DNA from: an uncultured delta proteobacterium
GTDB lineage: Bacteria; Desulfobacterota; Syntrophorhabdia; Syntrophorhabdales; WCHB1-27
Assembly: GCA_963810935.1 (NCBI GenBank)
Contig: CAWEPK010000007.1
Location: forward strand, 192,001-256,000
Length of the DNA: 64,000 nt
Direction of reading: 5' to 3'
In this document: in pieces, positions 26,086 to 27,463 of the stretch
Position numbering within the stretch: position 1 is the stretch's first letter
Layout of the letters: every line of letters starts with the position of its first letter
Notes under the pieces: model-generated
The model's input: only the letters and a program-made list of their open reading frames with translations
Told to the model about the DNA's origin: nothing
The model's database searches: none
Program-made: the position numbers and the translations under genes

Positions 26086-26206
26086 GATCCGGCCCCGGAA
26101 GCAGCGTGAGCGCCATCGGCGTCTTCACAATGGCGAAATAGGGCCTCGCGACCATAAAGCAAGCGAATGCGCCGCGCCGAGCAACTGTGTTCGATGTCAA
26201 GGCTTT

Positions 26207-27130
26207 TCATTGGGCGCACCAGGGGGTATTGGTCCTCATCATGGCATTCAGGATAACAACAAGTTTTCTCATACAGGCGGTGATGGCAACCTTGGGGAGC
26301 TTGCCGGCATGAATGAGGCGTTCGTAAAAGGTCTTGATTATAGGGTTGTAGCGAATGGCCGAGAGGGCCGCCATGTATAAGACTGCCCTTATATCGGCCC
26401 TGCCTCCGAAAATAGAGCGCCTTCCCTTAAACCTGCCGCTGTCCCGGTTGAAGGGCGCTAGACCCACGAGGGCACTAATCTTTTTTCTATTGAGCTTACC
26501 TAGCTCGGGGAGCCGTGCAAGTAGTATGGAAGCGTTGACGGGGCCGATCCCCTTGACGCTTCTCAGCAGGTTCTCCTTTTCCCTCCATAAGGGAGTCTTC
26601 CGTATGAAGGACGAGATGTCCTTGTCCGTTTTCTTGATGCAGTCAGCCAGCCACTCGATATGGGCCTCTATATCGGGTCTTGTCCAATCGGAAGCGGTTT
26701 CCAGGCGGTTTCTCTCCATAGTCAGCATTTCGACGAGCTGCCTTCTCCTGGCAACGAAGCTCTGCAGCCGGTGGGCATCGCTGTCTTTGAGGGGCCTGGC
26801 TTCGGGTTTTATCGCTTCCGCGAAGCGGGCGATGATCTCCGCATCGATCGTATCGGTCTTGGCCAATCTTCCCGTTGCCTTCGCAAAGTCCCTTACCTGC
26901 CTGGGGTTTACCACCACTACGGGGAGTTTGCGTAAGGCCAGGGTTTCTACTACAGGTATCTGGTACCCTCCGGTGGCCTCCAGCACCACCAGCCCAGGGC
27001 GCGCATCTGAGAGGAACCGGCTGAGTTCCTTTCGTCCCTCATCATTGTTGAGGAAGCTCTTTTGCGTACCGGGCGTAATGAAGACTTCCAACGTATCCTT
27101 TGCCACATCGATGCCTGCGAACTTTTCCAC
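26207..27130 (-). CDS. IS110-family DEDD recombinase/transposase
   Basis: [43 protein letters not shown] (catalytic Ser), GGRADIR. Confidence 0.96.
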
Positions 27131-27134
27131 TATC

Positions 27135-27312
27135 GCTCCTCCTTGCGAAATGCGGGCTCATGAGGCCCAAGCAACTGTCCGAGCTTGTAGGGAATGGGGT
27201 GTGACGACCCGCGCTCGGCGCCGGGATCATATGTCCCAAGGGGGAATCGGCCTGTCACACCCTGATGCTTCCTGGGATAAGTATAGTCAGATGACAGCAG
27301 GTAAGAAAACAT
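27135..27312 (-). ncRNA. Predicted bridge RNA in the left non-coding end
   Basis: Stem gggtgtgac/gtcacaccc encloses guides ATTCCCCC and GCGCCGAG that match the flanks; a second loop carries ACAGTTGC and GCAAG matching the donor junction. Confidence 0.8.
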
Positions 27313-27463
27313 GCATATAAGATACAAGGGGGGAGGCCGGGGCACCCGCCCGACGTAAGGAGGGAAGGCTCGGGCTTTGCCCGTGGAGGGGGTGCTGAGC
27401 CCCAATAATTGTCAAGCAGGAGATAAGGATCGGGTATCGAAATACCTGCTGCTTGCAGCAGGT

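What the first reader, a model, noticed from the sequence alone, without database searches (positions are those of the whole stretch)
26180..27328. IS110 element with a fully readable bridge RNA: all four guides match its own target and donor
Seen on the minus strand: the right end reads TTGACA-tcgaacACAGTTG[CT]cggcgc and the left end reads cctccccc[CT]TGTATCTT. Circularising at the CT core gives TTGACA-17bp-TATCTT, pointing into the 5' non-coding end. In that end, a stem (gggtgtgac/gtcacaccc) encloses ATTCCCCC (fwd 27240-27247; 6/8 match plus one wobble to the left flank) and GCGCCGAG (fwd 27214-27221; exact complement of the right flank CTCGGCGC). A second loop carries ACAGTTGCT (fwd 27170-27178; identical to the right end) and GCAAG (pairs with CTTGT using one G-T). 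Established: this is the IS621 bridge-RNA layout. Inference: an intact RNA-guided recombinase with target ~CTCCCCC-CT-CGGCGC and donor ACAGTTG-CT-TGTAT. The right donor guide overlaps the transposase RBS.
Basis: partly seen in the sequence, partly recalled or inferred. Interest (0 to 1): 0.82.

Follow-up and report, generated by a model that had tools for sequence, protein, structure and literature searches.

The report
REP-targeting bridge-RNA insertion sequence
This is an intact, apparently recently mobile jumping gene whose built-in guide RNA matches both its own ends and one exact spot in a common repeat of its host genome; it is a clean new example of a mechanism described in 2024, not a new kind of system.

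Summary
Confirmed, but ordinary. 26180-27328 (minus strand) is a 1149-bp IS110-group element: a 307-aa DEDD/Ser recombinase with all catalytic residues, CT cores, a junction promoter and a left-end bridge RNA laid out like IS621's (donor 12/14 identical). The genome holds four copies with identical coding sequence, all at one base of a REP-like repeat. A sister element (81% aa) sits 7 bp away in the same repeat, with target guides changed to match. Across 59 relatives the target guides covary with their flanks (0 of 20000 permutations as high) and the stems show compensatory changes. Additions: the right donor guide is longer and bulged as in IS621; handshake bases favour the minority repeat variant actually used (3 of 3 versus 12 of 47); a second -10 box is conserved in the left end. 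The left target guide alone is not above chance. The guide/ribosome-site overlap is real, but IS621 has the same spacing. Expression, circles and activity were not shown. The scan noted REP-targeting bridge elements before in other genomes. Boldest open reading: the recombinase represses its own translation by binding the donor loop.

The parts
26180..27328 (-). IS110-group insertion sequence, core to core, 1149 bp
   Evidence: Junctions parsed; same ends in the copies on C10 and C18, and same right end on C20
26207..27130 (-). Bridge recombinase gene, 307 aa, GTG start; D8/E51/D93/D96 and S231
   Evidence: PF01548 + PF02371; NF033542 232 bits over cut-off 140; PDB matches ISCro4 and IS621; residue positions
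27327..27328 (-). Left CT core
26180..26181 (-). Right CT core
27322..27326 (-). Right donor arm (RD), TGTAT
26182..26188 (-). Left donor arm (LD), ACAGTTG
26195..26200 (-). -35 box TTGACA of the circle-junction promoter (inferred)
27319..27324 (-). -10 box TATCTT of the circle-junction promoter (inferred)
27280..27285 (-). Second, internal -10-like box TATACT; candidate weak promoter of the integrated element
   Evidence: Same distance from the LTG in 11 of 11 close relatives; no matching -35; not called by the promoter scan
27197..27262 (-). Target-binding loop (TBL) of the bridge RNA
   Evidence: Compensatory pairs in 11 of 13 outer-stem pairs and 3 of 3 hairpin pairs
27239..27247 (-). Left target guide, 7/9 match plus one wobble to left flank and core
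27214..27220 (-). Right target guide, 7/7 complement of core and right flank (27221 adds an eighth pair)
27212..27213 (-). TBL handshake guide CG
   Evidence: layout from PMC11208158
27135..27184 (-). Donor-binding loop (DBL) of the bridge RNA
27171..27178 (-). Left donor guide, identical to LD plus core C
27142..27151 (-). Right donor guide, AT-(TTC bulge)-GCAAG, one G-T pair
   Evidence: same pattern as IS621 A157-U158/G161-G165
27140..27141 (-). DBL handshake guide GA
   Evidence: First base pairs with target position 7 in 50 of 56 relatives
27138..27144 (-). Shine-Dalgarno AAGGAGG, made of the RDG end, the handshake guide and the first base of the closing stem; 7 nt before GTG
27329..27411 (-). 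Left part of the interrupted REP-like repeat; left target 27335-27329
26154..26179 (-). Right part of the interrupted repeat; right target 26179-26175
27460..27545 (-). Empty copy of the same repeat, majority variant with G at target position 7

Best explanation
An autonomous IS110-group (IS621-like) element that moves by bridge-RNA-guided recombination. Shown in sequence: ends, cores, recombinase, two guide loops, identical copies at one base of a REP-like repeat. Inferred from IS621: weak transcription of the integrated element gives enough RNA and protein for a rare circle; joining the ends makes a strong TTGACA-17-TATCTT promoter that drives one transcript carrying bridge RNA and recombinase gene; a recombinase tetramer holds the target in the TBL and the circle junction in the DBL, cuts at the CT cores through phosphoserine links at S231 and exchanges strands. 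At position 7 both handshake bases go from mismatch to G-C pair on strand exchange, which favours insertion. Together with the LTG this selects repeat copies with C at that position; the common G variant would cost an LTG mismatch, an inhibitory pre-exchange pair and the post-exchange pair. Retargeting happens by changes in the two target guides on a fixed scaffold: the sister on contig C8 reads the same repeat 7 bp upstream.
For: Protein family and residues. Four copies with 924/924 identical coding bases at different loci, all in the same repeat. Sister: LTG 7/9 and RTG 5/5 to its own flanks; same TBL and left flank register in genome G002 (L006). Guide-to-flank match in 59 distinct relatives: LTG 6.59/9 against 4.47 permuted, RTG 4.42/5 against 1.59, 0 of 20000 each; in the 11 closest, 2 and 0 of 20000. 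Structure on 42 of these 59: 97.3% of cells paired, 19 of 23 pairs with double changes, 38-47% paired when slid. Handshake: DBL base pairs with target 7 in 50 of 56 (permuted 30.9, 0 of 20000), TBL base with donor 7 in 53 of 56. Filled sites 3 of 3 C against 12 of 47 empty repeats, Fisher p 0.023. IS621 mechanism: PMC11208160, PMC11208158, PMC13626964.
Against: No RNA or circle was observed (not testable here). The single-sequence fold is unremarkable and half-buries the RTG. The LTG alone is at chance level. Some relatives match poorly: L002 LTG 4/9 with G at position 7; four Gemmatimonadota-like elements 3/9, where the guide seems to lie outside the offsets allowed. Relatives are not independent, so permutation figures overstate. 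The parser required a donor-like motif, so donor-side conservation is partly built in, and 54 of 132 loci were not parsed. Position-6 handshake pairs are not consistently in favour of insertion. The variant test rests on three sites.
Confidence: 0.95

Rival explanations
1. Guide pairing is necessary but not sufficient: the hairpin of the repeat just upstream of the cut is a second specificity check, as reported for ISPpu10.
For: All five insertions in the genome lie in the repeat, though only 6 of 12 genomic matches to the 11-nt guide-defined core are in repeat context. The sister's left target is the 3' arm of the repeat hairpin. Precedent: 10.64898/2026.03.19.712850, abstract and section 7.
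Against: Both full 14-nt matches in the genome are in repeats anyway (2 of 2), so sequence alone may explain the choice. The window's own copy carries a 29-nt insert that changes the predicted hairpin. Relatives use unrelated targets.
Confidence: 0.25
2. The element spreads mainly by a copy-type route (single-strand copy-out or direct transfer) rather than by clean excision of a double-stranded circle; the guides are the same, the chemistry of leaving differs.
For: Four identical copies have accumulated. Copy routes are proposed in 10.1101/2025.10.25.684509 (passages) and 10.64898/2026.08.31.748434 (search listing only).
Against: The split promoter across the ends is conserved in most relatives, which needs a double-stranded junction. 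IS621 circles and empty sites are detected at native loci (PMC13626964 section 5). Copy number also rises with excision after replication (inference).
Confidence: 0.3
3. The element is a dead relic and the guide matches are chance or leftovers.
For: No transcript or circle was seen; LTG alone is at chance level.
Against: Identical open coding sequences at four loci, intact catalytic residues, ordered four-guide match in 0 of 20000 shuffles, covariation in relatives.
Confidence: 0.03

Closest known systems
IS621 of E. coli and its bridge RNA (Durrant 2024, PMC11208160; Hiraizumi 2024, PMC11208158; Hiraizumi 2026, PMC13626964)
   Same: DEDD + Ser recombinase (E 8.2e-40); long left end, short right end; CT cores; junction promoter; TBL then DBL; donor 12/14 identical and the same bulged RDG (supplement sequence); handshake logic; REP target; start codon 11-12 nt after the RDG.
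   Different: Different target and host repeat; RTG pairs 7-8 nt with its natural target against 4 in IS621; RDG bulge of 3 nt against 2; a perfect 7-nt Shine-Dalgarno inside the DBL end; a conserved internal -10 box; 307 aa against 326.
ISCro4 / IS622 (Perry 2025, 10.1101/2025.05.14.653916)
   Same: Best PDB match (E 4.7e-42); 14-nt target and donor, handshake guides.
   Different: Distant orthologue; activity of this element untested. Only 1 of 72 screened orthologues was measurably active in human cells there, so tool value cannot be assumed.
ISPpu10 and ISPpu9 of Pseudomonas putida (PMC12288879; 10.64898/2026.03.19.712850)
   Same: Two IS110 elements in REP sequences of one genome; ISPpu10 has a weak native plus a strong junction promoter; ISPpu9 translation is held down by its structured leader.
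   Different: No antisense or hitch-hiking small RNA was looked for here; here the two sisters share donor loop and repeat and differ by 7 bp of register.
ISEc21 / ISMch6 natural redirection (Siddiquee 2024, PMC11187229)
   Same: A relative at 72% identity with changed guide bases and a changed target.
   Different: Here both variants share one genome and one repeat, and both target guides differ.
ISMno7 family transposase (nearest named annotation in the plasmid collection)
   Same: 50.8% identity over 98% of the protein.
   Different: Its ends and RNA were not examined.

Membership tests
IS110 family | [quoted passage not shown] | tested here: met
   86 and 66.4 bits, both over cut-off; NF033542 over cut-off
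IS110 family | Catalytic D-E-D-D plus Ser, hydrophobic wedge | tested here: met
   D8, E51, D93, D96, S231 align to IS621's sites; Y-M-x-x-L opposite Y-M-x-x-M (alignment, read by eye; roles)
IS110 group (not IS1111) | Long left end, short right end, no long sub-terminal inverted repeats | tested here: met
   Left end 196 nt, right end 25 nt from coordinates; no inverted repeat between the two ends among the 25 longest of 33 listed
IS110 group (not IS1111) | Short core at both ends, insertion without further duplication | tested here: met
   Filled sites equal the empty repeat split at CT
IS621-type bridge RNA | Two internal loops (TBL, DBL), each with a central hairpin | tested here: met
   RNAalifold and pair counts on 42 sequences; single-sequence fold only partly agrees
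IS621-type bridge RNA | LTG and RTG pair with, and covary with, the target | tested here: met
   59 relatives
IS621-type bridge RNA | LDG and RDG pair with the donor | tested here: met
   LDG equals LD in 52 of 59; RDG end complements core plus RD in 56 of 56, in three variants; partly built into the parser
IS621-type bridge RNA | Handshake guides pair after strand exchange | tested here: met
   Position 7: 50 and 53 of 56 after exchange against 1 and 2 before; position 6 mixed
IS621-type bridge RNA | Promoter boxes reconstituted across the joined ends | tested here: met
   TTGACA-17-TATCTT by sequence only
IS621-type bridge RNA | RNA is expressed and binds the recombinase | not testable with these tools
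   No RNA holder listed
IS621-type bridge RNA | Circular intermediate and programmable recombination | not testable with these tools
   Only contigs could be laid; no bench work possible
REP / RAYT-associated repeats | Repeat flanks a RAYT tyrosine transposase gene | tested here: inconclusive
   Y1 genes in the genome look like multi-copy IS200-type elements; 3 of 7 loci have a repeat within about 250 nt against 5% by chance. The repeat is called REP-like only.

The most novel reading that the evidence does not exclude
One transcript, one fate. In this clade the recombinase's Shine-Dalgarno sequence is the end of the right donor guide plus the handshake guide. A transcript bound by recombinase at its donor loop, or cut out as bridge RNA, cannot be translated, so the protein would shut off its own synthesis and balance protein against guide RNA. 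The conserved internal -10 box would supply the low level of transcript needed to start excision without read-through. The overlap would also fix the handshake base as G and so restrict retargeting to sites with C at position 7 (10 of 11 close relatives). The compact layout recurs in 23 of 57 relatives, needs 6 changes on the tree (at least 3 forced) and is shared by IS621, so it could be tested in the model system. Three searches listed no paper on it; leader-based translational control of another kind is known for ISPpu9.
Probability: 0.3. Interest if true: 0.45.

Novelty: new member of a known kind. Interest (0 to 1): 0.25.

Why it matters
As it stands it adds one more natural bridge recombinase, with fully readable guides, to a family already mined in thousands. 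Its value is as a tidy natural experiment: two sister elements with the same donor loop read one repeat 7 bp apart, and the choice of a minority repeat variant is predicted by published guide and handshake rules. If the ribosome-site overlap is a feedback switch, it would explain how these elements limit their own recombinase and divide one transcript between message and guide, which bears on expressing bridge systems from native ends.

Tried and rejected
Rfam at E up to 1 over 25500-28000: one chance-level match, no bridge-RNA family. Single-sequence folding was uninformative. Sequencing runs: no RNA holder listed among 15 rows; this says nothing on expression. Contigs of 4 of these runs were laid: X1 and X3 hold the element as one contig deeper than its flank (27.1 against 7.35; 23.4 against 10.4), which the tool says is no copy number, and they may be the source sample. 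A joint that skips the element (26179 to 27327, 23 letters on the short side, X3) can come from any empty repeat copy, so it was not counted as excision. No end-to-end circle joint was listed, but contigs drop rare forms. The promoter scan found 0 sites in the linear sequence, so the internal -10 box lacks a consensus -35. RAYT link for the repeat: inconclusive. The idea that the guide/ribosome-site overlap is special to this element was rejected after reading IS621's left end. The bioRxiv text of Durrant gave 0 hits for start codon, ribosome and RBS. A look-up of earlier findings by sequence and by place returned nothing relevant. Structure prediction and complex prediction were not run: solved homologues exist and would not change the verdict. 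I did not check whether this element is inside the published orthologue sets (those supplement files were cut when stored).

Full report
Observation. The element runs core to core from 27328 to 26180, 1149 bp, and holds one gene, 27130-26207, 307 aa. In 20000 dinucleotide shuffles of the left end, all four guide matches in order occurred 0 times; singly, the RTG match occurred 85 times, the LDG 8, the LTG (up to 2 mismatches) 8842 and CAAG 6460. The set is real; the LTG needs outside support.

Protein. It carries PF01548 and PF02371, passes NCBIfam NF033542, IS110 family RNA-guided transposase, and its only solved relatives are the ISCro4 and IS621 recombinases. D8, E51, D93, D96 and S231 align with IS621's catalytic residues, which PMC11208158 gives as D11, E60, D102, D105 and S241 (passages). 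The nearest named annotation among plasmids is ISMno7 at 50.8%.

Copies and target. The genome has four copies with identical 924-nt coding sequence (C7, C10, C18, C20) and a sister on C8 at 80.8% aa. The C20 copy begins at its contig edge and lacks a left flank. All sit in one REP-like hairpin repeat: 47 empty right halves by pattern, 115 loci with BLAST pieces, one empty copy at 27460-27545. Filled sites equal the empty repeat split at a CT with nothing added. The three copies with a left flank all have C at target position 7, against 12 of 47 empty repeats (30 have G); Fisher p 0.023 on three sites. The sister is inserted at another CT 7 bp upstream in the same repeat; its donor guides are unchanged while its target guides read ATGAGCCT and CGGGGAG, matching its own flanks. 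The same sister type, with the same TBL and left-flank register, is in genome G002 (L006; right flank cut at 3 nt).

Relatives. Searches gave 147 loci. Of these 132 had a tblastn match and 78 were parsed (35 lacked the donor-guide anchor, 18 a left junction, 1 lay at an edge); 5 of the 78 lacked a right junction. 70 had both flanks, and 59 had distinct RNA regions. Target guides were located by alignment column, blind to the target, with the same four offsets allowed for real and permuted LTG pairs. Mean match was 6.59 of 9 for the LTG (permuted 4.47) and 4.42 of 5 for the RTG (1.59), 0 of 20000 each. For the 11 relatives at 69% aa or more it was 7.00 against 5.86 (2 of 20000) and 4.64 against 2.31 (0). 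These 11 have 11 different guide pairs but 4 donor arms. Poor fits exist: L002 (4/9), four elements at 3/9, and L130 (RTG 1/5). Kinship inflates the statistics, and the parser favoured donor-like ends.

RNA structure. On 42 of the 59, RNAalifold gives 25 pairs, 19 with double changes, in the stem-loop-hairpin-loop-stem layout twice over. For the 23 pairs of the four helices, 97.3% of cells pair, against 78.2% shuffled and 38-47% slid. Folded alone, the RNA has z -0.03 and the RTG is half paired, so the open-loop form probably needs the protein (inference).

Comparison with IS621. Its left end, read from Supplementary Table 1 of PMC11208160, has the same order of parts. The donor differs at 2 of 14 positions. 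Handshake guides are CG and GA. At position 7 both go from mismatch to G-C on exchange; across relatives these pair in 50 and 53 of 56 after exchange and 1 and 2 before (3 rows left out for alignment). Position 6 is mixed, and in this element two position-6 pairs form before exchange. The sister goes from one pair to three, as IS621 does (PMC13626964 section 11; my count). With G at position 7 the LTG mismatches, the TBL handshake pairs too early and the DBL handshake fails, which explains the use of the minority variant (inference).

Expression signals. Joining the ends gives TTGACA-17-TATCTT; the best junction score has this register in most of the 59. A second box, TATACT or TATAAT, lies 38 nt before the LTG in 11 of 11 close relatives (shuffles: mean 1.4, maximum 6), and a -10-like box occurs in 33 of 59 overall (shuffles 11.2, sd 2.6). 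It has no consensus -35. A weak native plus strong junction promoter is known for ISPpu10 (PMC12288879, passages). The Shine-Dalgarno AAGGAGG is the RDG end, the handshake guide and the first base of the closing stem, with the start codon 11-12 nt after the RDG in 11 of 11 close relatives. A compact spacing occurs in 23 of 57 proteins on the tree (L003 and L139 left out), needing 6 changes; IS621's is 12 nt (my count). So the overlap is real and recurrent, not unique. Co-transcription of guide and message with later processing is the stated model in PMC11187229 and PMC12288879 (passages). Searches listed no paper on repression through this overlap; subscription journals and preprint supplements are outside what I could see.

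Mechanism and confidence. Bridge-RNA-guided recombination at CT cores into a REP-like repeat, 0.95. Shown: anatomy, copies, covariation. Inferred: transcription, circle, chemistry, present activity. A hairpin check on the target (0.25) and a copy-type exit (0.3) are compatible refinements; a dead relic is unlikely (0.03).

What is known. Bridge RNAs, REP targeting and target-guide covariation over 5511 pairs are in PMC11208160 (passages). Natural redirection is in PMC11187229; 72 orthologues were screened in 10.1101/2025.05.14.653916 (passages); 181,180 IS110-adjacent sequences were clustered in 10.64898/2026.10.21.760802 (passages). Also seen as passages, without bearing on the verdict: 10.64898/2026.08.14.744561 and 10.64898/2026.09.15.751765. 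A search for two elements at two sites of one repeat listed no paper beyond those above. The scan has noted REP-targeting bridge elements in several other genomes (unchecked notes). The labels REP-like and IS200-type are my own reading.

Verdict. New member of a known kind; interest 0.25. Most novel reading not excluded: translational self-repression through the donor loop, probability 0.3, interest 0.45 if true.

Noticed in passing
window 46520-46958 (+), and C5, C3, C8, C12 of G000: Five near-identical (98-100%) Y1 transposase genes with hairpin ends, IS200-like; two of them (C8, C12) have the REP-like repeat at exactly the same distance, 152 nt, from the matched domain, and a more distant Y1 locus on C16 has one at about 230 nt.
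   Followed up: partly
window 27345-27363 versus 27138-27156: A 29-nt insert in this repeat variant contains CCTCCTT, complementary to the element's ribosome site (19-nt arms, 74% complementary); in a read-through transcript it could mask translation. Present at this copy only; may be chance.
   Followed up: no
G000 C5:364929-365414, C17:103800-104249, C7:16129, C17:17428, C17:104816, C5:83629: Six further PF01548 matches unrelated to this element by tblastn, four of them similar partial matches: other IS110-family elements in the genome.
   Followed up: no
L081, L088, L093, L082 (left ends): In these shorter relatives the best promoter uses TTGCTT formed by the donor arm and core as -35 and a -10 at about +21: a second way of building the junction promoter.
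   Followed up: partly
L008, L006, L087, L082, L104: The LTG register shifts by one or more bases relative to the scaffold between relatives; in the sister a one-base shorter hairpin offsets a one-base longer linker.
   Followed up: partly
L073, L074, L071, L075, L080: Close relatives share the left half of a similar repeat as target but have different right flanks and matching right guides, so element and repeat family seem to vary together.
   Followed up: no
window 28392-31691 (+): Three adjacent genes that read like a DsbA-type oxidoreductase (CPFC), a DsbB-type partner and an arylsulfate sulfotransferase-like protein; names recalled from sequence features, not searched.
   Followed up: no
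G000 C20:1-1011: The fourth copy starts at the contig edge inside the donor loop, and its first six bases differ from the other copies.
   Followed up: no
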